Positions 3,584-33,907 of a DNA stretch of 33,907 bases are shown here, piece by piece. Position 1 is the stretch's first letter. Every line of letters starts with the position of its first letter. Below the pieces are notes generated by a model. The model was not told where the DNA came from. It did no database searches and saw only the letters and a list, made by a program, of their open reading frames with translations. The stretch is taken from NCBI GenBank assembly GCA_021204765.1, contig JAJPYU010000233.1, positions 1 through 33,907 on the forward strand, written 5' to 3'. Source of the stretch: Clostridiales bacterium (GTDB lineage Bacteria; Bacillota; Clostridia; Lachnospirales; Lachnospiraceae). The position numbers were made by a program, and so were the translations under genes.

Positions 3584-3667
3584 GGTGTATCCCCATTAAT
3601 TTCTATCACCGCACCGGGCATCCCGCTGCCGGTTCGGGAAGAACGCATAAATTAATCCAAAGCATCA

Positions 3668-5413
3668 TCACTCAACAGAAATGATGTAATAATAAACCGG
3701 CTGGCCTCCGGGCTGCACCTCAACCTCGCACTCCGGGTGCCGCTCTGTCAAAATACCAGCCAGCGCATTGGCATCCTCCTCAGATATTTCCTCTCCGTAG
3801 TATATGCAGATAAAGGATGAATCCGCATCAACCATGGCTGCGACCATGTCACTTGCTACCTCAGTCATATCCTTCCCTGCGGAAAGCAATCCGGAATCAC
3901 CCAGACCCATAAAATCCCCCTTTTTGATATCCAGGTCGTCTATTCTCGTATCACGGACAGCGTAAGTGACCTCGCCGGTCTTTACCGTGGAGATGACCTC
4001 ACAGAGAGCATCCCTGTTATTCTCTACGCCTGACTCCTCGATATAATTGATGATAGCCGTAATCCCCTGGGGGATCGATGTGGTGGGAATGACTATGACC
4101 TGTCTGTCCTTTGTCATATCCGCCGCCTGGTTCGCCGCCATGATGATATTTTTATTATTAGGGAAGATGAAGACCGTCTCAGCGTTTACCATCTCTATGG
4201 CATCCAGCATATCCTGGGTGCTGGGATTCATGGTCTGCCCACCCTCAATGATAAAGTCGGCACCATATTCGGTAAACACCTCCCGAAGTCCGTCTCCTAC
4301 AGCCACTGCTATAAATCCAACAGCCTTCATGGGCACGGTCTCAGTCTCTGGACCGGCAGATTCGCTGTCTGCACCGCTCTGAACTGCTTCCCTCTCATGT
4401 GCCCTTGCCTCCTGCTCGTCAGCCTGCTCCTTCGCCAGCCTGTCGGCATCGTGGATAAGCTTCTCCTCGTGCTCCTCACGCATATTGTCTATCTTGATCC
4501 TGCTTAAGGAACCGTAAGACAAAGCTTTCTGCAGCACCAACCCCGGATCATTGGTGTGGACATGAATCTTAACAATGTCATTTACCGCTACCAGGACTAT
4601 GGAATCACCCAGATCATTCAGGAAAGATCTGAAAGCATCCTCCTCGTCCTCCGACATTTCATTATTAAGATTAATGATAAACTCAGTGCAGTAGCCGAAT
4701 TTAATATCGTCTGTATCCAGTTTCTTATCGCTTAAGTCCACACAGGGAATCTCCGGTGCCTCATCCCCGGAAAGCACACTGTAGTCTATCTCTTTTCCCC
4801 TGTAAGCATCCCTGGAGCCTTTTAAGATTTCTACCAGGCCCTGGCCTCCGGCATCTACCACCCCGGCCTGTTTGAGTACCGGCAGCATATCCGGAGTCCG
4901 CTCCAACACCCTCTCCATCTCGGCGATAATGGCATCAATATAGGCATCCATATCGCAGCTATCATCACAGGAAAGCTCCAGTGCCTTGTCAGCCCCGCCT
5001 CTGGCCACAGTAAGAATAGTGCCTTCCTTCGGCTTCATGACCGCCTTATACGCTGTATCACAGGCTTTCTGCATGGCCTCACAGAGAACCAGCTTGTCTA
5101 TGACATCATAATTCGCGATGAGCCTGGCAAAGCCACGTATGAGCTGGGAGAGGATGACACCTGAATTGCCCCTGGCACCACGCAGTGATCCCGACGAGAT
5201 GGCTCTGGAGACAGCCTTCATATCACGGGCTCCGGTCTTCTTCATCTCATCTACAGCGGAAAAGATGGTCATGCACATATTGATGCCGGTGTCTCCGTCG
5301 GGCACTGGGAAGACATTGAGAGAATTGATCCACTCTTTCTTCGCATCCAGGCTCGCCGCCCCGGCACAGAACATCCGTGCAAGCAGTTTTGAATCTATGG
5401 TCTTACTATCCAA
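3668..5413 (-). CDS. fakA: DAK2-domain protein / fatty acid kinase catalytic subunit (FakA/YloV family)
   Basis: LNVFPVPDGDTG, GARGNSGVILSQ, YCTEF, HVHT, GGQTMNPS and GGQPVYYY motifs; TTG start with AGGAGG SD; Asp23-DAK2-recG synteny. Confidence 0.93.
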   Translation of the reverse strand: MDSKTIDSKLLARMFCAGAASLDAKKEWINSLNVFPVPDGDTGINMCMTIFSAVDEMKKTGARDMKAVSRAISSGSLRGARGNSGVILSQLIRGFARLIANYDVIDKLVLCEAMQKACDTAYKAVMKPKEGTILTVARGGADKALELSCDDSCDMDAYIDAIIAEMERVLERTPDMLPVLKQAGVVDAGGQGLVEILKGSRDAYRGKEIDYSVLSGDEAPEIPCVDLSDKKLDTDDIKFGYCTEFIINLNNEMSEDEEDAFRSFLNDLGDSIVLVAVNDIVKIHVHTNDPGLVLQKALSYGSLSRIKIDNMREEHEEKLIHDADRLAKEQADEQEARAHEREAVQSGADSESAGPETETVPMKAVGFIAVAVGDGLREVFTEYGADFIIEGGQTMNPSTQDMLDAIEMVNAETVFIFPNNKNIIMAANQAADMTKDRQVIVIPTTSIPQGITAIINYIEESGVENNRDALCEVISTVKTGEVTYAVRDTRIDDLDIKKGDFMGLGDSGLLSAGKDMTEVASDMVAAMVDADSSFICIYYGEEISEEDANALAGILTERHPECEVEVQPGGQPVYYYIISVE

Positions 5414-18469: not shown

Positions 18470-20224
18470 CTATTTGTTTATCACCCTCGGCACATAGCTG
18501 GTGTGCAGCAGCTCGTGGGCTCTGGGGCTGCCCGGCTTCTCCAGATAATTGTCATAGAGCTCAATAATGGCCGGATTCTCGTGGGACATGCGGAACACGT
18601 TCGCCTCATCCAGTCCGTAAAGCACCTGCGCCCTCTTGCCGCGGATATCCACGGTATTGCGTATGTATGCCGGCTGCTGGGGCTGTCCGCCTCCGTTGAC
18701 GCAGCCGCCGGGGCAGGCCATGATCTCGATGAACTGGTAATCCGCCTCGCCGGACCTCACCTTTTCCAGTATCGCCCTGGCATTGGTAAGTCCGCTGGCC
18801 ACAGCCACTTTCACGTCAGTACCGCCCACATGGTAAGTTGCCTCCTTTATGCCGGCCGTGCCTCTGACCTCCTTGAAATCAGGGGAAGGGAGGGTATCGC
18901 CGGTCATGGTCTCCACAGCGGTACGAAGAGCCGCCTCCATGACGCCGCCGGTAGCGCCGAAGATAACGGCTGCACCGGTGGAAAGTCCCAGAGGACGGTC
19001 AAACCTCTCATCGGGCAGGGCATCGAACTTGATGCCGGCCTCGTTGATCATGCGGGACAGCTCCCTGGTGGTGATGGCGATATCCACATCTGGCACCCCG
19101 TTGGCAGCCTGATGATCTCTGTCGATCTCAAACTTCTTGGCAGTGCAGGGCATGACGGATACGACCACTATTTTCTTCTTATCTATACCAATCTTCTCAG
19201 CATAGTAGGACTTGGTGATGGCTCCGAACATCTGCTGGGGAGACTTGCAGCTGGACAGATGGGGGATCAGATCCGGGAAATAATGCTCACAGTACTTGAC
19301 CCAGCCCGGTGAGCAGGAAGTGATCATGGGAAGCACTCCGCCCCCCGTCACTCTCTCGATAAATTCGTTGGCCTCCTCCATAATAGTGAGATCTGCACCG
19401 AAATTCGTGTCAAACACTTTGTTAAATCCGAGCCTGCGAAGCGCTGCGGCCAGCTTGCCCTCCACGTCAGTGCCGATGGGGTAATCAAAAGCCTCACCCA
19501 AAGCGGCACGGACTGCCGGGGCGGCCTGGACGATCACATATTTATCCGGATCGTTGATAGCATCAAAAACTTCCTGGGTATTATCCTTCTCATAGATGGC
19601 TCCGACAGGACAGGCGGTAATGCACTGGCCACAGGATACGCAACTGGTCTCTCCCAGTCCCATATCAAAAGCGGAACCAATGAAAGTCTTAAATCCACGC
19701 TTGTTGGGTCCTATAACCCCGATGCCCTGGGTCTTTTCGCAGACAGACACGCAGCGGCGGCAGAGAATGCATTTGTTATTATCCCTGACCATATGCGGTG
19801 CGGAAGTATCCAGCTCGAACTTATTCATCTCGCCGTCGTAGAGATTCTCATCGTCTACCTTGTAATCATGGCAGAGCTTCTGCAGCTCGCATTTCCCGCT
19901 GCGGACGCAGGTCAGGCATTTCCTGTCATGGTCTGACAGAAGCAGCTGCAGGGTCTTTCTCCTGGAAGTGACAACCTTCGGGGTGTTGGTGTAAACTTCC
20001 ATTCCCTCATTGATAGGATAGACGCAGGCGGTGACCAGGGATTTGGCTCCCTTTACCTCAACCACACATATCCTGCAGGCTCCGATCTCGTTGATGTCTT
20101 TAAGGTAACATAAGGTAGGTATCTCCACTCCTGCGATACGGGCTGCCTCCAGAATAGTGGAACCTGCCGGGGCGGAAATCTCCATACCGTTAATCTTGAT
20201 ATTTACATATTCCATACCTGACAC
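18470..20224 (-). CDS. hydA: [FeFe]-hydrogenase catalytic subunit, group A3 bifurcating type (HydA/HndD)
   Basis: N-terminal 2Fe-2S, His-ligated 4Fe-4S and 2x4Fe-4S motifs; H-cluster motifs TSCSPGW, MPCTAKKFE and EIMACPGGCVNGGGQP. Confidence 0.96.
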   Translation of the reverse strand: MSGMEYVNIKINGMEISAPAGSTILEAARIAGVEIPTLCYLKDINEIGACRICVVEVKGAKSLVTACVYPINEGMEVYTNTPKVVTSRRKTLQLLLSDHDRKCLTCVRSGKCELQKLCHDYKVDDENLYDGEMNKFELDTSAPHMVRDNNKCILCRRCVSVCEKTQGIGVIGPNKRGFKTFIGSAFDMGLGETSCVSCGQCITACPVGAIYEKDNTQEVFDAINDPDKYVIVQAAPAVRAALGEAFDYPIGTDVEGKLAAALRRLGFNKVFDTNFGADLTIMEEANEFIERVTGGGVLPMITSCSPGWVKYCEHYFPDLIPHLSSCKSPQQMFGAITKSYYAEKIGIDKKKIVVVSVMPCTAKKFEIDRDHQAANGVPDVDIAITTRELSRMINEAGIKFDALPDERFDRPLGLSTGAAVIFGATGGVMEAALRTAVETMTGDTLPSPDFKEVRGTAGIKEATYHVGGTDVKVAVASGLTNARAILEKVRSGEADYQFIEIMACPGGCVNGGGQPQQPAYIRNTVDIRGKRAQVLYGLDEANVFRMSHENPAIIELYDNYLEKPGSPRAHELLHTSYVPRVINK

Positions 20225-20228
20225 CTCC

Positions 20229-22019
20229 TTATTCCTTGTAGATAGCGCCGAAACGGCAGTTGTCCATACAGGTACCGCACTTGATGCACCTGGTCATGTC
20301 GATGCTGTGAGGTGACTTGATGGCACCATCTATGGCATCCACAGGGCAGTTCCTCTTGCACAGTGTGCAGCCCTTGCACTTCATGGGATCGATCTTGTAA
20401 ACAATCAGCTTCTTGCAGACACCCGCGGGGCAGTGCTTGTTGACCACGTGCTCCATGTACTCGTCGCGGAAATATCGGAGTGTGGAAAGTACCGGGTTCG
20501 GGGCTGTCTGCCCTAAACCGCACTGGGCGTTTTCCTTGATATAGTAGCAGAGCTCCTCCATCTTATCCAGGTCTTCCACTGTACCGCGGCCGTCGGTGAT
20601 CTTTTCCAAAATCTCCAGAAGCCTGCGGGTGCCTACACGGCAGGGTGAGCATTTTCCGCAGGACTCATCCCCGGTAAACTGCAGGAAGAATTTCGCTATA
20701 TACACCATTCAGGTATACTCATCCATAACGATGAGTCCGCCGGAACCCATCATGGAGCCGATGCTTATCAGGTTATCATAATCGATGGGAATGTCAAAAT
20801 GCTCAGCCGGGATGCATCCGCCGGAAGGGCCGCCTGTCTGGGCAGCCTTGAACTTCTTTCCATTAGGAATGCCTCCGCCAATCTCCTCGATGACTTCCCT
20901 CAAGGTAGTGCCCATGGGAATCTCCACCAGGCCGGTATTATTTATCTTCCCTCCCAGGGCGAAGACCTTGGTACCCTTGGACTTTTCTGTGCCCATGGAT
21001 GAGAACCACTCAGCACCGTTTAAGATAATCCTGGGGACATTCGCCCAGGTCTCGACGTTATTTAAAATAGTAGGGCTCTCGAACAGACCCTTTACAGCCG
21101 GGAAAGGAGGCCTCGGACGGGGCTCACCGCGATTTCCCTCGATGGAGGTCATAAGTGCTGTCTCCTCACCGCAGACGAAAGCACCGGCACCGAGACGAAG
21201 CTCGATGTCGAAATCAAAGCCGGAGTCGAAAATATTCTTACCTAAGAGACCGTACTCCCTGGCTTGCTTAATGGCGATGCCGAGGCGTTTGACAGCGATA
21301 GGATACTCGGCACGGACGTAAATGTAACCCTGATTGGATCCGATAGCGTATCCGGCGATGGCCATGGCCTCCAGGACCACGTGGGGATCGCCCTCAAGGA
21401 CTGAACGGTCCATGAATGCTCCCGGGTCACCCTCATCAGCGTTGCAGCAGACATATTTCTGGACATTCCCCCTGTTGCCGGAGGCAAATCTCCATTTCAC
21501 TCCGGTGGGGAATCCGGCACCGCCGCGGCCTCTCAGTCCGCTGTCTGTGATGACCTTAATGACCTCATCGGGAGTCATCTCCGTCAGCACCTTTCCAAGA
21601 GCCTCATATCCGCCGGTACCGATGTACTCATCTATATTCTCCGGATTAATGACTCCGCAGTTTCTCAGGGCGATACGCAGCTGCTTCTTATAGAAAGGCG
21701 TCTCCTCCAGAGACTCGACGGTATTGTCCTCAGTGGTCTCCTGATAGACCAGCCTCTTTACCACACGGCCCTTTAAAAGATGCTCTGAAACTATCTCCGG
21801 CACATCGTCGACCGTGACATGGGTGTAGAACACGCCATCCGGGTATACAACCATGACCGGCCCCTCGGCACAGAGACCGTGGCAGCCGGTCTGAACCACG
21901 CAGATCTCAGAATCCAGATGGTTCTCCTTTAACTCTTCATTCAGCCTGTCGATGACCTGCAGACTCCCCGAGGAAGTACAGCCGGTACCACCGCAAACCA
22001 GAACATGTGCACGATACAT
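20229..22019 (-). CDS. hydB: NuoF-like diaphorase subunit HydB/HndC, interrupted by an in-frame TGA at 20709-20711
   Basis: The two track ORFs are contiguous and in frame (596 codons with read-through). Motifs: GLRGRGGAGFPTG, NADEGDPG, GAFVCGEETAL, ESCGKCSPCR and C-terminal 2x4Fe-4S. May be a pseudogene or a sequence error. Confidence 0.9.
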
Positions 22020-22033
22020 ATATTTCCCTCCCT

Positions 22034-22408
22034 CTATTTCGTTTCATCCAGATGCAGCAGATACTGGGTGCAGACCCTGCCGCCTACCAGATGTCTCTCA
22101 ACTATATCCATGGCCTTGTCCTCATTTACCTGGACATAGGTGACTTTCTCCTTGCCGGGCTCGAAGACCTCAACTATGGGCTCGAACTGGCACAGTCCGA
22201 TGCAGCCGGTCTGGGTCACCATCACATTGTCAAGGTGCCGCTCCTGCACTTCTTTTACCAGGATATTAAGCACCGGCCTGGCACCGCTGGCGATGCCGCA
22301 GGTAGCCATACCTACTACCACACGGGTCTTCTCTTCGTCCGCAGCGCGAAGACCTATCTGGCCCTGCATCTTCTCACGGATTGATTTTAATTCTTCTAAT
22401 GATTTCAT
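22034..22408 (-). CDS. hydD: Thioredoxin-like (2Fe-2S) ferredoxin subunit HydD/HndB
   Basis: MKSLEELK..VVGMATCGIASGAR..TGCIGLCQFEP; start reassigned to ATG 22408 with a GGAGG SD. Confidence 0.9.
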   Translation of the reverse strand: MKSLEELKSIREKMQGQIGLRAADEEKTRVVVGMATCGIASGARPVLNILVKEVQERHLDNVMVTQTGCIGLCQFEPIVEVFEPGKEKVTYVQVNEDKAMDIVERHLVGGRVCTQYLLHLDETK

Positions 22409-22436: not shown

Positions 22437-22982
22437 TCATGAAATAAGTTCTCTCTCGTTTTCTTCAAGATAGCCCCTGATAAACTGTGAGACCTCCGGC
22501 TCATCAAAGGGCACCTCTCCCAATATCTCCCGAAATTCCCCGGTGTCCAGGACAAATGAATTCTCATCCACAACCCTGGTGTAACAGAAATCTATCGCAG
22601 TATTCATGGTTACCAGTGAATGGATGGTCGCGCCTATATCTCCCAGAGGCATACAGTCGATATTGTCCGTCTTAAACAGCGCTGTTACTGTGGTCCCAAC
22701 ACCCGGTTCTGACTCTATGGAAAAATCCCCTCCGGTGCATTCCGCTTCCTGCTTTAAAAAAGGAATGCCCAATCCTACATTTCTGGTAGTCCTGGTGGTG
22801 TAAAAAGGATCTGTCACATGCTCCAGAGTCTCAGCGCTCATGCCGCAGCCGTCATCAGCAATGATCACTTTTAAGCTGTGATCTCCGACCTGCTCATCTA
22901 CCGTGATGCGGATAAGCTTCGCCCCTGCTGAAATGGAGTTCTGCGCTACATCCAGGATATTTAAGGAAATCTCCGGCAGCAT
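22437..22982 (-). CDS. Stand-alone HATPase_c (GHKL) histidine-kinase-like protein within the hyd operon
   Basis: QNS..AGA (N box), DDGCGM (G1), PFYTT (F box), GLG (G2); TGATG coupling to hydC. Confidence 0.88.
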   Translation of the reverse strand: MLPEISLNILDVAQNSISAGAKLIRITVDEQVGDHSLKVIIADDGCGMSAETLEHVTDPFYTTRTTRNVGLGIPFLKQEAECTGGDFSIESEPGVGTTVTALFKTDNIDCMPLGDIGATIHSLVTMNTAIDFCYTRVVDENSFVLDTGEFREILGEVPFDEPEVSQFIRGYLEENERELIS

Positions 22983-23666: not shown

Positions 23667-25136
23667 TTACCGCTTAAACGCCTCGCCAATCCTGTGCATG
23701 GAGAAGTCCTCCATTGGATAATTTGCGAGATTATCCAGTATATTTCTCCCATCAGCCGCAGCTATCATAGTATCCCGGTCCTTTTTGAATTCTTTCACAG
23801 TTTTATTCTTGCTGGGTCCCCCGACACATCCTCCCTCACAGGCCATTCCCTCGATGAAATCCCCGGGCAGGCGTCCGAGCTTTAAGAGAAGTAAAGCTTT
23901 TTTGCACTCCGCAGCGCCGTCGCAGCGGCACACATTGATATCTGCCTCCTCTCCCCTCTCTTTCATACACTCAAGAACGGAAGCCGTCACTCCTCCGCTG
24001 TTGCCGAAACGTTTACCGAAAACCGAACTCTCCTGATACTCCGTTTTCGACAGCTCCAGCTCAATACCTTTGCCGAATAAGAGAGAACGGATCTCTCCGA
24101 AGGTCAGTGCATAATCAGCGTTGCCCTCAATGCTCAGATCCAGGCACTCGCTTTTCTTCGCTATACAGGGGCCGATGAAAACAGTGACCGCCTCAGGATC
24201 CTTACTCTTGATCATGCGGGACACGCCGCACATGGGTGAGACCGTCGTGGACATATTGTCCAGGAGCTCCGGGAAATGCCGCTTTATCATATTTACAAAG
24301 GCCGGGCAGCAGGAAGTAGTCATCTTTTTGCCTTCTTTGTAAGCCTCGGACCACTCTAAAGCCTCTGAGGCCGCGGTCATATCTCCACCCAGTCCTACTT
24401 CCACCATGTCTGCAAAGCCGACTTTCATCAACGCCTCTCTCCAGCTGGCCATGGTGATTTCCGGGCCGAACTGTCCCTCTGCGGAGGGAGCCACCATAGC
24501 TACCACACGTTTCCCGGCTTTAATCAATTTGATAACATCCACGGCAAATGTCCTGGTGCCCACAGCTCCGAAGGGGCAGCTGTGAATGCAGGCGCCGCAC
24601 TGAATGCATTTATCCTCATTTATCACGCAGATACCGTAGTCATCATAAGTGATGGCATCGACAGGGCAGACTTTTTTGCAGGGTCTCTCCAGATGGGCAA
24701 TGGCGTTGTAAGGGCAGGCATCCATGCACTTGCCGCACTCTTTACATTTGTTCGGATCTATATAGGCGTGATCCCGGCTCATGCTCACCGCTCCGAAAGC
24801 ACAGGAATTCTGACAGGCCTGACCCATACATTTGCGGCAGTTGTCCGTGACCACGTATGAAGCAATGGGACATTCCTCGCAGGCTGAATTAATGACCTGG
24901 ACCACACTGTTGCTGTTCCTGTCAGAAGGGCATTTGCCCTCCGAAAGCCGCACACGCTGGCGGATGATCTCCCTCTCCTTGTATATGCAGCAGCGGTAGG
25001 TAGCCTGCGGTCCGGGAATAATCTTGTAAGGGATCTGATCCCTGTCAGCATCAAGGGTTCCGTTCCAGGCTGATTTTGCCACCTCGTACAAGACTCTGTG
25101 TTTCAGTTTCAGGATAGTCATGTCATTTGTGACCAT
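23667..25136 (-). CDS. Monomeric [FeFe]-hydrogenase, group B-type (HfsD-like)
   Basis: YRCC N-terminus, multiple 4Fe-4S motifs, and H-cluster motifs TSCCPAF, GPCIAKKSE and EGMACEGGCVGGP. Confidence 0.9.
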   Translation of the reverse strand: MVTNDMTILKLKHRVLYEVAKSAWNGTLDADRDQIPYKIIPGPQATYRCCIYKEREIIRQRVRLSEGKCPSDRNSNSVVQVINSACEECPIASYVVTDNCRKCMGQACQNSCAFGAVSMSRDHAYIDPNKCKECGKCMDACPYNAIAHLERPCKKVCPVDAITYDDYGICVINEDKCIQCGACIHSCPFGAVGTRTFAVDVIKLIKAGKRVVAMVAPSAEGQFGPEITMASWREALMKVGFADMVEVGLGGDMTAASEALEWSEAYKEGKKMTTSCCPAFVNMIKRHFPELLDNMSTTVSPMCGVSRMIKSKDPEAVTVFIGPCIAKKSECLDLSIEGNADYALTFGEIRSLLFGKGIELELSKTEYQESSVFGKRFGNSGGVTASVLECMKERGEEADINVCRCDGAAECKKALLLLKLGRLPGDFIEGMACEGGCVGGPSKNKTVKEFKKDRDTMIAAADGRNILDNLANYPMEDFSMHRIGEAFKR

Positions 25137-25147
25137 TTATACTCCTC

Positions 25148-25294
25148 CTAATAATATTGTACCGTTACGTCCTTACCAAGCTTCTCCAGGCAGGTGCAAA
25201 GCTGTCTTACCAGATTCTGGCGGATACCCATACTGAAAGGAAGCCCCGGATTATGATAAGCTACGTTGGTGGCTTTACCCACATAGAGGCGCAC
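25148..25294 (-). pseudogene. C-terminal relic of a SpoIIE/PP2C-family phosphatase (HfsC-like)
   Basis: Manual translation VRLYVGKATNVAYHNPGLPFSMGIRQNLVRQLCTCLEKLGKDVTVQYY* resembles, from memory, the C-terminus of hydrogenase-associated SpoIIE phosphatases. It lies in the expected position and the catalytic part is absent. Confidence 0.75.
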
Positions 25295-26123
25295 TTTCCT
25301 GTGCCTCCGTATGTCCCGAGATGAACTTTATCAGGGTCAATCCCGCTTTCTCTGTCGGCATCCGCATTTTCCAGCAGGGAATCACAGAGCCTGTTTAAAG
25401 TCACCTGGGTTTCAGCTGTGGTCTCGCCCAGCAGTCCGGCTATCTCCTGAACCACCGTCATCTGTTTACTGATGATATTCTGAGCAAGCCTGGCAGTCTC
25501 CAGCTTCTGTTCATACTCCCTCTGCTCCCGCTCCTCGTCCCGGGTGATATCCACGAAAATACCCATGACGCCGTTTATCTTCTCTATATATACTATGTTC
25601 TGCAGCGTGACCAGATGATATTCGTCGTAAGTCACTCTTCTGCCCTGTATCGCCTGATGAGTCTTAAGCACCCATCGAAAATCATCCGCATCTATCATCT
25701 CGTCCAGATACATCTCCAGAGCCTGTGTGCGTGTCTTTCCGAAGCATTTCTCTGCGGCGGCTGAATATTCCAGTATCTTCATGTCCGCATCGGTGACTAT
25801 GATGACATCAGGGGAAGTGTCTAACACCAACCAGATTCGACAGGGACTCCGCCCGCTCGTGCAGGAAAGGTATGCACATGGTGACCTCAGCCTTTCCCCG
25901 AAAGACCGCAACTGCTTTCTCCCGGCAGGTCGGATAGCCGCAGGCCCCGCAGTTAAGCTCGTCCTCAGGATTATATTTGTTTGTCATGTGCAGGATTTCT
26001 TCTATCTGCCCCTCCCGCGGCCAGGCTCTTACACATATCAATACAGTCGGCAGAACCATGGACGAAAATCTTACGGTAAGTTCGTTTTTGTTCACCAGGA
26101 TCTCCATTGTCCATACCGGTCAT
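25261..26123 (-). pseudogene. Relic of a PAS-domain sensory [FeFe]-hydrogenase (group C, HydS/HfsB-like)
   Basis: Three fragments in different frames: YRKIFVHGSADCIDMCKSLAAG; FeS domain DELNCGACGYPTCREKA; PAS region plus KQMTVVQEIAGLLGETTAET. Ferredoxin and H-cluster motifs are absent, and there is a 4-bp duplication at 25826-25833. Confidence 0.85.
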
Positions 26124-26362
26124 GATAATCTTCCCATGATCTCTTTTTCAAAAAAATCTGACGTACTCTCAGGCTGTAAATAGAAATGATCGTCGCCTAT
26201 TGTGACATGAACATTGTCCCCGCAGTGCCCACTGCAAAAAGTACCGGTAAGTTCCACTTTATCGGAAAGTCCGTTTACATTGACCAGGTGCTGCAGCTGC
26301 TCGATGACCAGACGTGACCCTTTCAAATGACAGGCACTGCCGATACAGATAGTAACTTTCAT
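26120..26362 (-). CDS. Small thioredoxin-like (2Fe-2S) ferredoxin (HfsA-like)
   Basis: MKVTICIGSACHLKGS..GTFCSGHC; start reassigned to 26362 on the basis of the AGGGGG SD and the promoter position. Confidence 0.88.
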   Translation of the reverse strand: MKVTICIGSACHLKGSRLVIEQLQHLVNVNGLSDKVELTGTFCSGHCGDNVHVTIGDDHFYLQPESTSDFFEKEIMGRLS

Positions 26363-26396
26363 CAGAAATTCCCCCTGCGATTCCTTTATTTCGGAC

Positions 26397-26425
26397 ATTA
26401 TAAGTTATATGAAATACCACGTCAA
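26397..26425 (-). promoter_or_regulatory. Near-consensus sigma-A promoter of the hfs-like operon
   Basis: TTGACG (26425-26420), 17 bp, TATAAT (26402-26397). Confidence 0.75.
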
Positions 26426-26553
26426 TATAGGCAGAGAATTAGGGATGTGCTATTATTGAAACAATATAAAATACACACGTCTACGTTTCTCATGGTATTC
26501 GGGACAGGTAGATATACATTGCAAGCTTGCTTGCACATGTATATTTAGCTGTT

Positions 26554-26632
26554 CCGGTAACTGTGAAACAGTTACCGGCCACATTTATGAGTAATCCGCA
26601 TCGAAAGATGCGGATTACTCATAAAATATGGC
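26554..26632. repeat. Tandem perfect palindromes in the divergent intergenic region (REP-like)
   Basis: CCGGTAACTGT-GAA-ACAGTTACCGG (26554-26578) and TTTATGAGTAATCCGCATC-GAAA-GATGCGGATTACTCATAAA (26584-26625). Confidence 0.8.
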
Positions 26633-26653
26633 AGGTACCATGAGAATAATTAC

Positions 26654-26682
26654 TTGCTTTCCGCCGGGATATCATTTAAACT
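26654..26682 (+). promoter_or_regulatory. Putative promoter of the DRTGG operon
   Basis: TTGCTT (26654-26659), 17 bp, TAAACT (26677-26682). Confidence 0.5.
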
Positions 26683-26733
26683 GTTTGTTGTGAAACAGCG
26701 AAACCCGAACCGAAATCAGGGAGGTTTTTACCA

Positions 26734-27066
26734 ATGACAATCGGAAAAGTTATAGAATTACTGGACGCCGAGCCTATAGGCGAGGTGGACAGAAATGTTG
26801 AGATTGATACTATCTGCGGCTCCGACATGATGAGCGACGTCCTGGCCTTTATCAAAAAGGATGCCCTGCTGCTTACAGGCCTTGCGAATCTCCAGACCAT
26901 CCGCACCGCCGAGATGATGGACATAGTCTGCGTCTGCTTTATCAGGGGCAAGGAGCCCAGCGACGAGATGATAGAGATGGCCGCCGACTGCGGCGTTTAC
27001 CTCATTAAGTCAGACCTTCGCATGTACGATGCCTGCGGCATACTCTACAGGGAAAGGGGCTACTGA
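26734..27066 (+). CDS. DRTGG-domain protein
   Basis: GSDMMSDVLA..LLLTGL.N.QTIRTAEMMDI..V.F.RGK.P; GGAGG SD. Confidence 0.88.
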   Translation: MTIGKVIELLDAEPIGEVDRNVEIDTICGSDMMSDVLAFIKKDALLLTGLANLQTIRTAEMMDIVCVCFIRGKEPSDEMIEMAADCGVYLIKSDLRMYDACGILYRERGY

Positions 27067-27067
27067 C

Positions 27068-27487
27068 ATGAACGGCATCCATTATACCTTTCAGGTGGAC
27101 GGTGAAGATTTCACCCGTGCCGGTGAGGCCAGCAGCCGCCTGAAGTCGAAATTAAAACAGATGAACCTGCCTCCTGACGCCGTCCGCAGATGCGCCATCG
27201 CCATATATGAGGGAGAGATCAACATGGTGATCCATGCAAACGGCGGCGTCATTGATGTGGATGTCATGCCGGATCACGTTCAGATGGTCTTAAAGGATGT
27301 CGGCCCCGGCATCCCGGATATAGATCAGGCCATGCAGGAGGGATTTTCCACAGCGGACGGCAAGGTAAACGAGATGGGCTTCGGTGCCGGCATGGGACTG
27401 CCCAACATGAAGCGGGCTTCCGATGAGATCCGTATTGATACCGAGCTGGGTGTCGGCACCACGGTGACTATGAGAATTGATTTCTGA
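27068..27487 (+). CDS. Anti-sigma regulatory factor / RsbT-like Ser/Thr kinase
   Basis: DFTRAGEAS, YEGEINMVIHA.GG, DVGPGIPDI..AMQEGFST and GFGAGMGLPNMK motifs; start reassigned to ATG 27068. Confidence 0.9.
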   Translation: MNGIHYTFQVDGEDFTRAGEASSRLKSKLKQMNLPPDAVRRCAIAIYEGEINMVIHANGGVIDVDVMPDHVQMVLKDVGPGIPDIDQAMQEGFSTADGKVNEMGFGAGMGLPNMKRASDEIRIDTELGVGTTVTMRIDF

Positions 27488-27569
27488 CGCGAGATCACAG
27501 TGTGACAGGAAATGATCTCTCACAGTTGTTTTTGCCGCTAAATTGCAAAGGCGGCGGAATGGAGTTTCC

Positions 27570-28841
27570 ATGAACAAATTTTACCATTCAGTATATTTAA
27601 GTGAGGACAGATGCGGAGGATGCTTTACCTGCCTGAAACGCTGCCCTACACAAGCCATACGTATACATAACAGAAAAGCTTCCATCATTCCTGAGTTCTG
27701 CATTGACTGCGGGGAATGCTGCAGGCACTGCCCCCATCACGCCAAACGCGCCCGCAGGGATCATCTGGATGAATTCAAAGAGGATTTCTCATATCTGGTA
27801 GCTCTGCCAGCTCCCGCACTCTACAGCCAGTTCAACCACATGGAGGACGTGAATATCATCCTCTCCGCCATTCTGCTCTCCGGTTTTGACGATGTCTTTG
27901 AGGTAAGCGCCGGAGCTGAGGTGGTATCCATGTCCACCAGGAAGTATATCGCAGAGCATCAGGACCAGTGGCCGCTTATCAGCACAGCCTGTCCTACCAT
28001 AGAGAGGCTTATCAGAGTACGTTTCCCGAACCTTATCCCTCATCTTCTGCCTATACTGCCTCCCATGGAAGTGGCTGCTAAGCTGGCCAGGGAGAGAGCC
28101 ATGAAAAAGACCGGTCTTTCCTCCGATGAGATAGGCATAGTCTTCATCTCCCCCTGTCCCTCAAAGGTTGCTTTCCTCCGCTCCCCTCTGGGCCTGGAAA
28201 AAAGCAATGTGGACAGAGCCATAGCCATTAAAGACTTTTATCCTCTCCTGCTCTCCCACATGAATGAGGCTGAAAAGGATATTAAAAAGCTCTCACTTTC
28301 CGGACGGATCGGCAAGGGCTGGGCAATCAGCGGAGGGGAATCTGTCGGCATAGACTCGGGCGAGTACCTGGCTGCTGACGGCATAGAAAATGTTATCAGG
28401 GTTCTGGAGGATCTGGAAGATGAGAAGTTTGAACACAGTCTCCGCTTCGTGGAATTGAACGCCTGCAGCGCCGGCTGTGTCGGAGGCGTCCTCACAGTTG
28501 AAAATGCGTATTTAGCCAAAACCAAGACCACCCGCATGACACGCCGTGAAGCCATCACCAGGCCGGCTCATGAACTCATCGCAAAACGCGACCTTACCAC
28601 CTTTGACTGGTCCTCTCCCATCACTTACGAGAATGTCTACAGCCTGGGAGAAGACATCTTCGAAAGCATGGAGAATATGGAAAAGGTGGAAACCATCCGG
28701 GATCAGCTTCCCAAACTGGACTGCGGCTGCTGCGGAGCCCCTACCTGCATGGCCCTGGCCAAGGACATAGTCATGGGAAGGGAAAATGCCTGTATTGAAG
28801 ACTGTATATTTTTAGAGACATCATCAGACAGGGAAGAATAA
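27570..28841 (+). CDS. Atypical, putatively sensory [FeFe]-hydrogenase-like protein (group C/D type)
   Basis: N-terminal 2x4Fe-4S; variant H-cluster motifs STACPTI, SPCPSK and ELNACSAGCVGG; C-terminal FeS domain LDCGCCGAPTC; start ATG 27570 with a GGAG SD. Confidence 0.87.
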   Translation: MNKFYHSVYLSEDRCGGCFTCLKRCPTQAIRIHNRKASIIPEFCIDCGECCRHCPHHAKRARRDHLDEFKEDFSYLVALPAPALYSQFNHMEDVNIILSAILLSGFDDVFEVSAGAEVVSMSTRKYIAEHQDQWPLISTACPTIERLIRVRFPNLIPHLLPILPPMEVAAKLARERAMKKTGLSSDEIGIVFISPCPSKVAFLRSPLGLEKSNVDRAIAIKDFYPLLLSHMNEAEKDIKKLSLSGRIGKGWAISGGESVGIDSGEYLAADGIENVIRVLEDLEDEKFEHSLRFVELNACSAGCVGGVLTVENAYLAKTKTTRMTRREAITRPAHELIAKRDLTTFDWSSPITYENVYSLGEDIFESMENMEKVETIRDQLPKLDCGCCGAPTCMALAKDIVMGRENACIEDCIFLETSSDREE

Positions 28842-28897
28842 TATGATAATACACAAATTTATATCACCAACAAAAAGGTGACAGAATGGAGTTTATT

Positions 28898-29227
28898 ATG
28901 ACTGTAAAAGAAATTATCGACAAACTGGATCTGGAAGTTATTAATCCCGGCGACCTTGACGCCAAGGTTAACGAGCCCTACTGCTGTGACCTCTTAAGCG
29001 TCGCCATGGGAAATGCCCCCGCAGGCTGCGCCTGGTGCACCGTGATGTCCAATATGAATACCCTGGCAGTGGCAAGCCTGGCGGACTGCGCCTGCATTAT
29101 CCTGTGCTGCCACGCCAATGTGGATGACAATATGAAGCTTAAAGCGGTGTCCCAGGACATCTGTCTGCTCCGCACAGACAAGGCCATCTTCGACACTGCC
29201 CTTGCCATCTATCAGCTGATCAAATGA
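28898..29227 (+). CDS. Second DRTGG-like protein
   Basis: YCCDLLS.AM..AP...AW.TV..N.N.LAVA.L pattern; start at 28898 with a GGAG SD. Confidence 0.82.
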   Translation: MTVKEIIDKLDLEVINPGDLDAKVNEPYCCDLLSVAMGNAPAGCAWCTVMSNMNTLAVASLADCACIILCCHANVDDNMKLKAVSQDICLLRTDKAIFDTALAIYQLIK

Positions 29228-29940
29228 CCAGGCTCTCCTACGACCTGCACATCCATTCCTGCCTTTCGCCCTGCGGAGACGACGAGAGCACGCCGGCGAA
29301 CATAGTGGGAATGGCAAAGGTAATAGGCCTGGATCTCATCGCCCTGACAGACCACAGCTCCTGCAAAAACTGTCCCGCCTTCGCTGCGGCAGCGGACGCC
29401 TACGGCATGCGGGTACTCTTCGGCATGGAGCTTACCACTGCGGAGGAAGTCCACGTCCTCTGCTATTTTGCGACCCTTGACGATGCCATGGCTTTCGACG
29501 CTTATGTCTACGGTCATCTCCCGGACATTCCCAATGTGCCTGCTTTCTTCGGGAATCAGTATATATATGGCTCCGATGATACCATCACGGGGACGGAGCT
29601 GAAGCTTCTTATCTCCGCGACAGACATACCCTTCGATGCGGTCTACGACCTGGTCTGCTCCTACCACGGCATCATGGTGCCGGCCCACATCACGAAGGCG
29701 ACGACCAGTCTCCTCGGAAACCTGGGATTCATACCGGACGGGTCAAAATTCACCTGTATCGAATTAAAAAACAAAGCCGAATGGAGTGTATTGCAGAATA
29801 CTTATCCTCATTTAAAACATTGCAATATGATAACCAGCTCAGATGCACATGATCTGAACTCGTTAAATGAACCTGTAAACTTCCTCGAGGTCAAAGACAA
29901 ATCAACCATATCTATTTTAGAATCTATTGCTCTCGCGTGA
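29224..29940 (+). CDS. PHP-domain phosphoesterase
   Basis: DLHIHSCLSPC, ALTDH, EEVH, PAH and SSDAH metal-binding motifs. Confidence 0.92.
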   Translation: MTRLSYDLHIHSCLSPCGDDESTPANIVGMAKVIGLDLIALTDHSSCKNCPAFAAAADAYGMRVLFGMELTTAEEVHVLCYFATLDDAMAFDAYVYGHLPDIPNVPAFFGNQYIYGSDDTITGTELKLLISATDIPFDAVYDLVCSYHGIMVPAHITKATTSLLGNLGFIPDGSKFTCIELKNKAEWSVLQNTYPHLKHCNMITSSDAHDLNSLNEPVNFLEVKDKSTISILESIALA

Positions 29941-30346: not shown

Positions 30347-31138
30347 TCAGAAGATGATCTTCTTCGGGCACTTCTCTGCGCACTTGCCGCAGCCCGTGCA
30401 CTTGTCCTGATCAATGTGGGCGATATTATTCTCCACCGTGATGGCGTCGAACTCGCAGACCTTCTGGCACATCTTACACCCGATGCATCCGGCCTTGCAG
30501 GCCTGCATGACCTTCTTACCCATATCCTGGGAAGAGCACTGTACCATGTGGGTGGCGTCGTAGGGCACCAGCTCTATGATGTGCTGCGGGCACACATTGA
30601 TGCACTTGCTGCAGGCCTTGCAGTTATCCTTGTCCACTACTGCCACACCGTTTCTTACATGGATGGCGTCAAAGGGGCAGGCCATAGCGCACTCGCCGAA
30701 GCCCAGACAGCCATAGTTACAGGTCTTGGGACCTCCGTTGGAGATATTCTTCACCATGGCGCAGGACATCTCCCCGATGTAATTGTAGTCGAAGTGGGCC
30801 ATGTCGCTGGTGCCGGAGCACTTGACGAAAGCCACCATGCGCTTGGCGTCTCCGACCTCCTCGCCCATTATGGCGCCGATCTTCGCCGCCACCGGCGGAC
30901 CTCCCACAGGACAGCCGCTCACCTCAGCCTCACCCTTTACGATGGCCGCAGCCAGGCCTGAACAGCCGGGATATCCGCAGCCTCCGCAGTTATTTCCGGG
31001 AAGGACCCCGATGATCTCTTCCTCCCGGGGATCCACTTCCACCTTGAACTTCTCACCGGCGATACCCAGGACGATACCGATGACGATACCTACTACAGCT
31101 ACGACTACAGTCGCGATTATGATAGCCTGTACATTCAT
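30347..31138 (-). CDS. rnfB: Rnf complex subunit B
   Basis: TM anchor, [25 protein letters not shown] and multiple 4Fe-4S motifs; start ATG 31138 after GGAGGTG. Confidence 0.95.
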
Positions 31139-31151
31139 CTGCTGCACCTCC

Positions 31152-31727
31152 TTATATCACGCCGGAGAAGCCCATGAATGCAATGGACATAAGTCCCGCA
31201 GTCACCAGGACGATGGCTGAGCCCCTAAAGGGGTTCGGGACGGCATTGTACTCCATCTTCTCGCGGATGCTGGCCATGATGACGATGGCAATGCAGAAGC
31301 CCACTGCCGTCGCCAGGCCGTTGACGGTGCTTACCCCGATGCCATAGCCGTACTGCACGTTATTAAGGGCAACTCCCAGCACTGCGCAGTTCGTAGTGAT
31401 AAGGGGAAGGAAAACGCCCAGAGCGTTGTACAGACTCGGCACGGACTTCTTCAGGAACATCTCAACAAACTGCACCAGAGCGGCGATAACCAGTATGAAG
31501 ACGATGGTCCGTAAGTATACCAGGTCAAATTTCTGTAAAATAAACTTATCTAATACGCTGGTCACGAAGGACGCGATGGTGATAACGAAGATAACTGCCA
31601 CGCCCATTCCGGCGGCGGTATTGGTCTTTTTTGATACGCCGAAGAAAGGACACAGACCCAGGAACTGGCTCAGCACGACGTTATTTACAACCGCGGAACC
31701 TATTGCGATCAAAAGAACTTCTTTCAT
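31152..31727 (-). CDS. rnfA: Rnf complex subunit A
   Basis: [14 protein letters not shown] and [12 protein letters not shown] motifs; start reassigned to ATG 31727 (191 aa, GGAGGTG SD). Confidence 0.95.
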
Positions 31728-31740
31728 CTGAACCCACCTC

Positions 31741-32487
31741 CTATTCTTTATCGTCGGTACCGGCGGTGATGACTTTCTTCTCCTCATCCACTGCGCAGAC
31801 ACCCTCGCTGCATGAACCACAGTCGCCTGCCAGGCAGCCGGCTGACTTCTTCACCTTCAGACCCCTATTCTTTCTGGCCTGTCTGTAAGCATTCTGGATG
31901 GCAATGAGCATTGCCAGCACGAAGAATGCGCCGGGTGCCAGAACGAAGATGGTGATAGGTGTGTATCCGTGCATACCCCAGGCGGAGTCAGCCAGAGGCA
32001 GAAGCTGGAAACCGAAGATCTGTCCGGATCCCAGGATCTCACGGACGATACCGATGCAGGTGAGGCCTAAAGTAAAGCCTAAGCCCATGCCGATACCATC
32101 GAACACGGAAAGGACGGGACCGTTCTTGGAGGCGTAGCTCTCAGCACGGCCCAGGATGATGCAGTTGACCACGATCAGGGGGATGTATATGCCCAGTGAA
32201 TCGTAGAGGCTGGGTACAAAGCCCTCTAAGAGCAGCTGCACTATGGTGACCAGAGACGCGACCACCACTATAAATGCGGGGACGCGCACCTTGTCAGGTA
32301 TGATCTTTCTAAGCAGGGAGATGATCAGGTTGGAGCAGACCAGCACCAGGGTGGTGGAGAGTCCCATTCCCACGCCGTTAATTGCGGATGTGGTGACAGC
32401 CAGTGTGGGGCACATACCCAGCATCAGCACAAAGGTGGGATTTTCCTTGATCAGACCGTTGTATACACGTTCAATATATTTATTCAC
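31741..32487 (-). CDS. rnfE: Rnf complex subunit E
   Basis: ENPTFVLMLGMCPTLAVT, IPLIVVNCIILGRAE and LAPGAF motifs. Confidence 0.95.
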   Translation of the reverse strand: MNKYIERVYNGLIKENPTFVLMLGMCPTLAVTTSAINGVGMGLSTTLVLVCSNLIISLLRKIIPDKVRVPAFIVVVASLVTIVQLLLEGFVPSLYDSLGIYIPLIVVNCIILGRAESYASKNGPVLSVFDGIGMGLGFTLGLTCIGIVREILGSGQIFGFQLLPLADSAWGMHGYTPITIFVLAPGAFFVLAMLIAIQNAYRQARKNRGLKVKKSAGCLAGDCGSCSEGVCAVDEEKKVITAGTDDKE

Positions 32488-33112
32488 TGATCAGTTCACC
32501 TCCTGTCTCATCTATCAGATATCTGTAATAGACCAGGGTGGAATTCACCGCGTTGGTCACAGCACGTGAGGTAATGGTGGCGCCGCTTATGGCATCGATC
32601 TCCTCATCGGAGGTGGAACCTGTCTTGGTGACCACGAAAGCATCCACCTGCTTTCCGGCGTACTGGGAGGAGAAATCCTCATCCTTGGACTTCATGCCCA
32701 GGCCGGCGGTATCACTGATATCTGTTATGGAATATCCGTTTACTGTGCCGTCAAGCTGTATACCCACGGACAGAGTGACGTCTCCGCCGTAGCTGTTCGG
32801 GTCTGTGGCGGAAATGACGTAACCCAGCATATTGCCGGAGGAGTCCACCGCCTGTACACAGCTGTCTATGGTATCGTCTGTGTACCCCTCCGCATCTATG
32901 ACTGTCTGGGCATCCTCAGTTGTGAAATCAGGATAATCAACAAACTCGGTGGCATCAGGGAACACAGCCTGATAAGCCTCAGCCAGAGCCTCCGCCTCGG
33001 CCGCAGCTATGGGCTCAAGAGTGATCTCGTGCACTGCGCCCAGGCCGAAACCGGCCACCAGGGTGATGACGAAGAGTATGAGGGCATCTTTCATGATAGA
33101 CTTCTTATTCAT
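32480..33112 (-). CDS. rnfG: Rnf complex subunit G
   Basis: N-terminal anchor, TAGLG, and the FMN attachment motif DAISGATITS. Confidence 0.94.
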   Translation of the reverse strand: MNKKSIMKDALILFVITLVAGFGLGAVHEITLEPIAAAEAEALAEAYQAVFPDATEFVDYPDFTTEDAQTVIDAEGYTDDTIDSCVQAVDSSGNMLGYVISATDPNSYGGDVTLSVGIQLDGTVNGYSITDISDTAGLGMKSKDEDFSSQYAGKQVDAFVVTKTGSTSDEEIDAISGATITSRAVTNAVNSTLVYYRYLIDETGGELISE

Positions 33113-33907
33113 TACTTGTCCCCTCCTTTCTTCGCCTTCTCAGGCTTCACGTAACCGAAATGCTTCGGCACGGTGAAACGCTCGATGAGCGGGACCAGCA
33201 TGTTGGCGAAAATGATGGAGTAGGAGCATCCCTCTGCAGAGGCACCGAAGAGACGGAAGATACCCAGCAGGCATCCGCAGATGATGCCGTAGATGATCTT
33301 GCCTCTCGGCGTGATAGGCGAGGTGACATAATCCGTGGCCATGAAGAAGGCACCCAGCATCAGGCCGCCGCCGCAGAGCTCCTGGATCACGAAGGGAAGC
33401 AGGTCCCCACTGGTCAAGTGTCCGCCGAAAAGGATGATAAACACCGCGAAGGTGATGATGTAAGCGAAGGGGATCTTCAGGTCAATGATGCCGCGGGCCA
33501 CCAGTATGATAGCCCCAATAAATATAGCTATGACCGAAGTCTCACCGATAGTACCGGAAATGCGGCCGGTAAACATGGCCATGGTATTGCTGTAGAGCTC
33601 GCCGTTTGCCAGATAGGAAAGGGGCGTAGCACTGGAGGCGGTATCCACTCCCACCGATGCGAAGGTGGTCATGGGGCCGGTAAAGGCCAGCAGCAAAAAG
33701 CACCTGGCGCCCAGGGCCGGGTTCATGAAATTCTGTCCCAGTCCTCCAAAGAGCATCTTCACCACGATGATGGCGAAGCCGCCGCCTATCATGCAGATCC
33801 AGAAGGGGATCTGGCTTGACAGGTTAAGAGCCAGCAGCAGGCCGGTGACTATGCAGCTTAAATCTCCCACGGACTGCTTTCTGTGGGTGATCCTGTTAAA
33901 CAAGAAC
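33112..33907 (-). CDS. rnfD: Rnf complex subunit D, 3' part (start lies outside the window)
   Basis: FGGLGQNFMNPAL, SSATPL FMN site, GTIGETS and FFMATDYVTSP motifs. Confidence 0.95.
   Translation of the reverse strand, partial: FLFNRITHRKQSVGDLSCIVTGLLLALNLSSQIPFWICMIGGGFAIIVVKMLFGGLGQNFMNPALGARCFLLLAFTGPMTTFASVGVDTASSATPLSYLANGELYSNTMAMFTGRISGTIGETSVIAIFIGAIILVARGIIDLKIPFAYIITFAVFIILFGGHLTSGDLLPFVIQELCGGGLMLGAFFMATDYVTSPITPRGKIIYGIICGCLLGIFRLFGASAEGCSYSIIFANMLVPLIERFTVPKHFGYVKPEKAKKGGDK

What the first reader, a model, noticed from the sequence alone, without database searches (positions are those of the whole stretch)
20640..20730. In-frame TGA at a conserved Cys of bifurcating hydrogenase HydB: recoding, split gene or error
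Seen: minus strand GAT GAG TAT ACC TGA ATG GTG TAT ATA GCG AAA reads DEYT*MVYIAKFFLQFTGDESC, and the frame continues intact for 159 codons. Known: HydB/NuoF-like proteins read DEDxCMVDIAKFFLEFTVDESC here, so the TGA replaces the Cys. As I recall, this Cys joins the downstream H..C..C (here EHVVNKHCPAGVC) in a metal site. Inference offers three options. (a) Selenocysteine: a weak hairpin TTCC(T)GCAG..CTGCGGAA with a G-rich loop starts about 22 nt downstream. (b) A two-polypeptide HydB, since ATG follows the TGA directly. (c) A local error burst or decay, since neighbouring D>Y, D>Y and V>G are also single transversions within about 45 bp. Option (c) is the most parsimonious.
Basis: partly seen in the sequence, partly recalled or inferred. 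Interest (0 to 1): 0.72.

Follow-up and report, generated by a model that had tools for sequence, protein, structure and literature searches.

The report
Sequencing error in a hydrogenase gene
A stop codon interrupts an otherwise ordinary hydrogenase subunit gene in one draft genome, but it sits in a short cluster of odd base changes that no relative shares and is most likely a sequencing error rather than selenocysteine or a split gene.

Summary
The TGA is in the assembly (20711-20709, minus strand). It is codon 437 of a 596-codon hydB and aligns with Cys438 of A. mobile HydB, a ligand of the Zn/B2 site. It is most likely a base-call error burst in a fragmented draft genome. All 24 congener orthologues aligned have Cys. 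Three more radical changes (D>Y, D>Y, V>G) lie within 47 bp, in a stretch nearly invariant in the genus (permutation P about 0.001), while both flanks look normally conserved. The changes fit the A/C and G/T confusions of four-colour Illumina chemistry. The same assembly has five more internal stops (TAA, TAG, TGA), two of them in single-copy dnaE and pyrG; a congener control has none. Selenocysteine fails: no selA or selB, selD is Cys-type beside yqeC, no consensus SECIS, and no TGA at this site in a scan of 185,579 species genomes. A split gene has no ribosome-binding site and would lose the ligand. Two unrelated metagenome hydB contigs do carry TGA here, neither with a SECIS. No reads were available, so a real recent mutation is not excluded.

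The parts
20229..22019 (-). hydB (HydB/NuoF-like flavin subunit of a HydABC-type [FeFe] hydrogenase), 596 codons plus TAA, with one in-frame TGA
   Evidence: 85-88% identical to intact congener orthologues
20709..20711 (-). in-frame TGA, codon 437, in place of the Cys that ligates the Zn/B2 site
   Evidence: aligns with Cys438 of PDB 7t2r_B, named as a ligand in PMC8880783
20715..20717 (-). codon 435 TAT (Tyr); congeners have Asp in 23 of 24; G>T at 20717
20700..20702 (-). codon 440 TAT (Tyr); congeners have Asp in 24 of 24; G>T at 20702
20697..20699 (-). codon 441 ATA (Ile, silent); congeners ATC 18, ATT 6; weak member of the cluster because ATA is common in this genome
20670..20672 (-). codon 450 GGG (Gly); congeners have Val in 24 of 24; T>G at 20671
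20229..20708 (-). 159-codon frame after the TGA, beginning with ATG, without a ribosome-binding site; holds the B1 cluster cysteines, His524/Cys530/Cys535 and the two C-terminal 4Fe-4S motifs
20415..20450 (-). His524 (20450-20448), Cys530 (20432-20430), Cys535 (20417-20415): the other ligands of the same site, all intact
18470..20215 (-). hydA, NADH-dependent [FeFe] hydrogenase catalytic subunit, open frame, strong ribosome-binding site
   Evidence: NF040763 905.7 bits, cut-off 765
22034..22408 (-). small 124-aa gene similar to the N-terminal thioredoxin-like 2Fe-2S domain of HydB (inferred HydD/HndB-like)
   Evidence: 40% identity to HydB residues 7-90, E 2.5e-10; frame; no NCBIfam hit at 1e-20
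22437..22982 (-). HATPase-domain gene inside the operon
   Evidence: PF02518
22982..23518 (-). hydC/NuoE-like 2Fe-2S subunit, open frame (start as listed by the ORF tool)
   Evidence: PF01257 E 2.8e-53

Best explanation
The TGA replaces a conserved metal-ligand Cys codon in the assembled hydB and is most likely a base-calling error, one of a burst of four or five wrong bases within 47 bp. Shown: the TGA and its neighbouring changes are private to this assembly, clustered, and accompanied by other internal stops elsewhere in the genome. Inferred: the living organism has an ordinary one-piece 596-aa HydB with Cys437, and the contig was carried across this stretch by very few reads, one of them of low quality, so that its miscalls entered the consensus. 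The enzyme would then be a normal NADH/ferredoxin-linked HydABC-type [FeFe] hydrogenase (activity untested).
For: (1) Cys at this codon in 24 of 24 congeners aligned and in 52 of 53 motif matches in 31 genus genomes, the exception being this site (counted by hand). (2) Of 6 radical changes at 493 genus-conserved columns, 4 fall in codons 435-450: permutation P 0.0008, or 0.0012 given the stop; none of 24 congeners has two such changes in any 16 codons. (3) pN against congeners is 0.106 in 435-450, where congeners differ from each other by 0.007; it is 0.004 in 400-434 and 0.070 in 451-535 (congeners 0.007 and 0.046, maximum 0.107). (4) Three changes are G/T swaps; the TGA is C>A if the true codon is TGC, which makes up 2627 of 3610 Cys codons counted in this genome. 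A/C and G/T are the pairs confused by four-colour Illumina chemistry (PMC4381044, passages) and substitutions tend to cluster (PMC4787001, passages). (5) Six internal stops in 213,758 aligned residues of this genome (TAG 2, TAA 2, TGA 2) against 0 in 222,933 for congener G009, Fisher P 0.014 (one antisense shadow row dropped on each side). They hit dnaE, pyrG, hemZ, prephenate dehydrogenase and cysT orthologues; dnaE and pyrG have no second copy in the assembly. All six fit an A/C or G/T change and none is a transition-type nonsense change (P 0.058 with equal rates, 0.008 with a four-fold transition bias). (6) The assembly is fragmented: 299 contigs, N50 7,508. (7) hydA, hydC, hydE and hydF frames are open.
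Against: No reads could be laid on the site, so the error is not shown directly. The site lies well inside the longest contig, whereas 3 of the 5 other stops are within 75 bases of a contig end. Congeners use TGT in 20 of 24, and TGT>TGA is not an A/C change. The sequencing platform is unknown. With a wider alignment of 68 sequences only codons 435 and 437 pass an 85% conservation filter (P 0.05), although Tyr440 and Gly450 are seen in none of the 68. A three-genome test on 53 genes showed only a weak excess of radical A/C-G/T changes (10 here, 5 and 3 in the two congeners). The stop-rate control is a single genome. No second assembly of this species was found.
Confidence: 0.88

Rival explanations
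1. The changes are real and recent: the sequenced strain, or a minor variant that won the consensus, carries a nonsense mutation and a local cluster of damage-type transversions, so hydB is a very young pseudogene and the enzyme is lost.
For: G>T, C>A and T>G are also the changes expected from oxidised guanine (recalled, no call). The site is inside a long contig. The genome has a second, intact HydB/NuoF-like gene at C47 (58-59% identical).
Against: No relaxation outside 16 codons; hydA, hydC, hydE and hydF are open; four lesions in 47 bp with none comparable in the other 1.7 kb; equivalent stops in single-copy dnaE and pyrG, which established knowledge says a living cell is unlikely to tolerate, show that this assembly holds false stops. 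The C47 paralogue sits in a different gene set.
Confidence: 0.08
2. UGA is decoded as selenocysteine, giving a HydB with a selenium ligand at the Zn/B2 site.
For: The TGA aligns exactly with a conserved Cys and the frame stays open. selD is present (394 bits). The genome is 92% complete, so genes can be missing. One of 31 genus genomes has selA (G046). Two unrelated metagenome hydB genes have TGA at the same codon and no hydB had TGG (L184, L185). The T>G change at codon 450 adds a pair to the most stable hairpin after the TGA (read from the fold).
Against: No selA; the best selB match is EF-Tu; no tRNA-Sec above cut-off, the best match being a tRNA-Ser (weak, as only 28 tRNAs are assembled). 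selD has Cys and lies beside yqeC, the selenium-cofactor marker. No hairpin meets the bacterial SECIS consensus of PMC13188914, while 15 of 24 Cys-coding congeners pass the same loose test by chance. In 401 genomes of the phylum of a selA-bearing Desulfobacterales genome: 0 with TGA, 263 with Cys. D435Y lies upstream of the TGA and a SECIS cannot explain it. HydB/NuoF is not in the table of 119 prokaryotic selenoprotein families.
Confidence: 0.02
3. hydB is naturally split: translation stops at UGA and restarts at the adjacent AUG, giving 436-aa and 159-aa chains that assemble.
For: ATG follows the TGA directly and the break falls just before the PF10589 Fe-S region (441-524). Another gene of the operon (start 22982) also lacks a ribosome-binding site and abuts the previous stop, so coupling without one seems to occur here.
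Against: Met438 is simply the conserved residue of all 29 relatives. Anti-SD pairing is -3.1 kcal/mol, against -12.4 for hydB and hydA. The split deletes the Cys ligand itself. No congener is split. Among 120 short database homologues of the C-terminal piece, starts fall at any nearby Met (25 at 432, 20 at 369, 17 at 438, 12 at 423), as for broken contigs. It does not explain the other three changes.
Confidence: 0.02

Closest known systems
HydB of electron-bifurcating HydABC hydrogenases (Bfu family): PDB 7q4v_B 'Iron hydrogenase HydB', 7t2r_B (A. mobile NiFe-HydB), 8a6t_B, 7p5h_B
   Same: Full-length match (E 5.5e-282 and 6.7e-269), same domain order, AFM and GGPSG motifs, B1 cysteines, His524/Cys530/Cys535, hydA and hydC neighbours.
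   Different: As assembled, the Cys438-equivalent is TGA and three nearby residues are changed. The metal at this site is disputed in print: Zn (PMC9499530, PMC10021017) or a 2Fe-2S cluster (PMC8880783).
Bacterial selenoproteins with metal-ligand Sec (FdhA, [NiFeSe] hydrogenase large subunits, MvhD/VhuD, HdrA)
   Same: In-frame UGA at a Cys column of a redox metalloprotein, open frame behind it.
   Different: No selA/selB, no SECIS, no relative with UGA, damaged flanks; HydB is not among the 119 families listed in PMC13188914 Table 1.
False internal stops in low-coverage metagenome-assembled genomes
   Same: Private to one assembly, all three stop codons, single-copy housekeeping genes hit, A/C and G/T type changes.
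   Different: Not confirmed by reads; this site is inside a long contig rather than at an end.

Membership tests
HydB of bifurcating HydABC (Bfu) | Domain order: thioredoxin-like 2Fe-2S, FMN-binding, SLBB, 4Fe-4S helix bundle, C-terminal 2x4Fe-4S | tested here: met
   Pfam on the read-through product
HydB of bifurcating HydABC (Bfu) | AFM, Phe (282 in A. mobile) and GGPSG motifs that mark bifurcating enzymes (PMC8880783) | tested here: met
   AFM at 201, GAFVCGEE at 279, GGPSG at 396; motif list from passages
HydB of bifurcating HydABC (Bfu) | Zn/B2 ligands His525, Cys531, Cys536 equivalents | tested here: met
   His524, Cys530, Cys535
HydB of bifurcating HydABC (Bfu) | Zn/B2 ligand Cys438 equivalent in one continuous chain | tested here: not met
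   TGA in the assembly. The assembled sequence is therefore not filed as a functional member; the failure is attributed to a likely error.
HydB of bifurcating HydABC (Bfu) | Adjacent hydA and hydC | tested here: met
   NF040763 over cut-off; NuoE-like subunit
HydB of bifurcating HydABC (Bfu) | NAD- and ferredoxin-coupled activity | not testable with these tools
   needs purified enzyme
Bacterial selenoprotein | In-frame UGA aligned with a conserved Cys | tested here: met
Bacterial selenoprotein | selA and selB in the genome | tested here: not met
   no selA match; best selB match 187 bits, cut-off 242, is EF-Tu; genome 92% complete; selA in 1 of 31 genus genomes
Bacterial selenoprotein | tRNA-Sec (selC) | tested here: inconclusive
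   none over cut-off, but the tRNA set is incomplete, 28 found
Bacterial selenoprotein | selD | tested here: met
   present, Cys-type, beside yqeC and a cysteine desulfurase, which points to a selenium-cofactor role
Bacterial selenoprotein | [quoted passage not shown] | tested here: not met
   no conforming hairpin (rules); the review notes that some selenoprotein genes lack a consensus element
Bacterial selenoprotein | UGA shared by relatives, flanks conserved | tested here: not met
   two sporadic metagenome contigs
Naturally split subunit | Own translation start signal and the same split in relatives | tested here: not met
Established pseudogene | Relaxed selection and scattered lesions over the gene or operon | tested here: not met
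   pN normal on both sides of codons 435-450; partner frames open
Assembly base-call error | Low depth or low quality under the changed bases, true base in other reads | not testable with these tools
   no run was available to lay on the site

The most novel reading that the evidence does not exclude
Selenocysteine replaces the Cys ligand of the Zn/B2 hinge site in some HydB/BfuB subunits, making a first selenium-containing electron-bifurcating flavin subunit; this window, L184 and L185 would be three independent cases at the same codon.
Probability: 0.02. Interest if true: 0.75.

Novelty: not a real feature. Interest (0 to 1): 0.07.

Why it matters
As an error it matters only as a caution: this draft genome carries false stops even in dnaE and pyrG, so split genes and radical substitutions in it should not be trusted without reads, and annotation will cut its hydB in two. 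Had selenocysteine been real, it would have offered a natural probe of the disputed Zn versus 2Fe-2S site thought to gate electron bifurcation.

Tried and rejected
Raw reads: no sequencing run was listed for window 19700-21700; this blank is not evidence. Same-species copies: a 30-base flank found nothing in metagenome contigs, the best protein homologue is 89% identical, and neither fragment is in the protein collection by exact sequence. The 120 homologues all have Cys (118 by pattern, two read), but a protein search can only return stop-free products, so this was given no weight. Genome-wide TGA reassignment rejected: TGA ends 242 of 604 matched genes with a complete stop codon. The records of L184 and L185 are not held as genomes, so their Sec machinery could not be checked. 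L183, the third metagenome match, is not a hydB. G046, the one congener with selA, has its hydB cut by a contig end at residue 405, so its codon is unknown. Absence of a full-length hydG here is not a sign of decay: only 2 of 31 genus genomes have one over cut-off. The three-genome substitution test covered only 400 kb of the third genome and was weak. No structure prediction was run, since solved homologues already define the site. The earlier-findings index held nothing on this genome or on a TGA in hydB.

Full report
Observation. The minus strand of 22019-20229 translates as 436 residues, TGA, 159 residues and TAA in one frame. Read through, the product is a 596-aa protein with the Pfam domains of HydB. 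Its best solved relatives are 7q4v_B and 7t2r_B. In the 7t2r_B alignment the TGA codon 437 pairs with Cys438, and His524, Cys530 and Cys535 pair with His525, Cys531 and Cys536. PMC8880783 (passages) names these as ligands of the B2 cluster and says three of the cysteines and the His are conserved in bifurcating FeFe HydB. PMC9499530 (passages) and PMC10021017 (passages) assign Zn to the three-Cys, one-His site. The gene lies between a NuoE-like hydC, a HATPase gene and a small thioredoxin-like gene upstream and a group A6 hydA downstream. Source names of the nearest homologues point to Lachnospiraceae-like Clostridia. The window is the longest contig of a 299-contig, 92% complete genome with N50 7,508.

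Relatives. A six-frame search of 40 relatives, which reads through stops, showed no stop in the best match of any relative listed, including all 24 congeners. I aligned the 29 for which loci were returned: all have Cys, TGT 24 and TGC 5. A motif search of all 31 genus genomes gave 53 matches, 52 Cys and this one TGA (counted by hand). A looser motif in 401 genomes of the phylum of a selA-bearing Desulfobacterales genome found TGA in 0 and Cys in 263. These motifs need particular flanks, so divergent HydB genes are not covered.

The local cluster. Against 24 congeners the gene has 16 differences at 493 conserved columns; six are radical and four of those are codons 435, 437, 440 and 450 (P 0.0008 by permutation, 0.0012 given the stop). 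No congener has two such changes in 16 codons. pN is 0.106 in 435-450, where congeners differ by 0.007, and is within the congener range on both sides. In a wider set of 68 sequences ten residues of this protein are seen nowhere else and four of them are these; with an 85% conservation filter only two remain and P is 0.05, because 440 and 450 vary in distant homologues. Tyr at 435 occurred once among 120 distant Cys-motif matches. At base level the changes are G>T (20717), T/C>A (20709), G>T (20702), T>G (20671) and a silent T/C>A (20697) that may be genuine, since ATA is frequent here. PMC4381044 (passages) describes A/C and G/T cross-talk in four-colour Illumina chemistry; PMC4787001 (passages) notes that substitutions cluster and rise towards read ends. 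The platform of this genome is unknown, so this is a fit, not a proof.

The assembly as a whole. ORFs from about 2.0 of 2.2 Mb of congener G009 were aligned to this genome and the reverse. After dropping one antisense shadow frame on each side, this genome has 6 internal stops in 213,758 residues and G009 has 0 in 222,933 (Fisher P 0.014). The other five are TAG in dnaE, TAA in pyrG, TAA in hemZ, TAG in prephenate dehydrogenase and TGA in cysT. dnaE and pyrG have no second copy in the assembly. All six fit an A/C or G/T change and none is a Gln, Trp or Arg transition (P 0.058 to 0.008 depending on the transition bias assumed). Three of the five lie within 75 bases of a contig end; dnaE, hemZ and hydB do not. 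A polarised test with a third genome covered only 53 genes and gave a weak trend (10, 5 and 3).

Selenocysteine. There is no selA, the best selB match is EF-Tu, and no tRNA-Sec passes the cut-off, though only 28 tRNAs are assembled. selD is present, has Cys, and lies beside yqeC; that this marks a selenium-cofactor use rather than Sec rests on the NCBIfam name and on recall. selA occurs in 1 of 31 genus genomes. The proposed hairpin has a 17-nt loop and is shared by Cys-coding congeners. No hairpin satisfies the consensus given in PMC13188914 (passages), though 15 of 24 congeners pass the same test by chance. HydB/NuoF is absent from that review's Table 1 of 119 families (section 7, parts 1-2 of 3 read); PMC13326102 (passages) has no mention of NADH or hydrogenase in its main text, and its supplementary family table was not read. 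The term NuoF had no occurrence in the 20 papers listed by search. I ran no other search for a Sec-containing HydB.

Against this reading stands one result. The metagenome scan gave three matches; one is not hydB, and two are HydB homologues with TGA at the same codon. L184 is mid-contig with no other change in the motif; its 93%-identical relatives have Cys with the same or nearly the same flanks, and the nearest named ones are Bacteroidales. In L185 the TGA is 41 bases from the contig end. Neither has a consensus SECIS. The number of Cys matches in that collection was not counted, so no rate can be given. I read them as sporadic stops, but they keep the novel case at a small non-zero probability.

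Split gene. Met438 is the conserved residue. The internal ATG has no ribosome-binding site (-3.1 against -12.4 kcal/mol), although one other gene of the operon also lacks one. The split would remove the ligand. Short database homologues start at any nearby Met.

Decay. A long-standing pseudogene is excluded by normal conservation outside the cluster and by open hydA, hydC, hydE and hydF frames. A very recent real mutation cluster cannot be excluded without reads.

Verdict. The likely truth is an ordinary HydB with Cys437 and a short run of miscalled bases in a draft assembly (0.88). Real recent damage 0.08, selenocysteine 0.02, split gene 0.02. Interest 0.07.

Noticed in passing
L184 (Ga0105102_10000278, 2873-4911) and L185 (Ga0105106_10097562, 1099-2163): Two unrelated metagenome hydB genes with TGA at the same Cys codon, no consensus SECIS; L184's 93%-identical relatives have Cys, L185's TGA is 41 bases from the contig end.
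   Followed up: partly
G000 C242:10441, C222:75, C233:1511, C279:7606, C298:24: Internal stops in dnaE, pyrG, hemZ, prephenate dehydrogenase and cysT orthologues; a quality flag for the whole assembly.
   Followed up: yes
G000 C120:957-1949 and the genus: Only 2 of 31 genus genomes have a full-length hydG over cut-off; 26 of 31, this one included, have a roughly 420-aa radical SAM frame matching only the first 380 of 470 model positions, although hydE and hydF are present here. Whether it is a short HydG or a ThiH-like protein was not tested.
   Followed up: partly
L011 (G000 C193:4110-8018): Cys-type selD between a MocA-like/YqeC fusion and an EF2568-type cysteine desulfurase: a likely selenium-cofactor cluster without Sec genes.
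   Followed up: partly
window 23667-29940: Two further Fe-hydrogenase-domain genes (23667-25136 minus, 27543-28841 plus), a PAS gene, a HATPase gene and a PHP gene upstream of hydC, partly on the opposite strand; earlier notes describe such sensor cassettes as common.
   Followed up: no
window 30347-33903: Rnf complex genes (Fe-S subunit, two Rnf-Nqr membrane subunits, FMN-binding subunit, RnfD-like) next to the hydrogenase region.
   Followed up: no
L307 (G000 C47:418-2693): Second, intact HydB/NuoF-like gene (584 aa, Cys at the site) between a NuoE-like gene and a NuoG/NfnA-like gene cut by the contig end.
   Followed up: partly
G046 C23:16649-18013: The only genus genome with selA; it is also one of two with full-length hydG, and has 5% contamination.
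   Followed up: no
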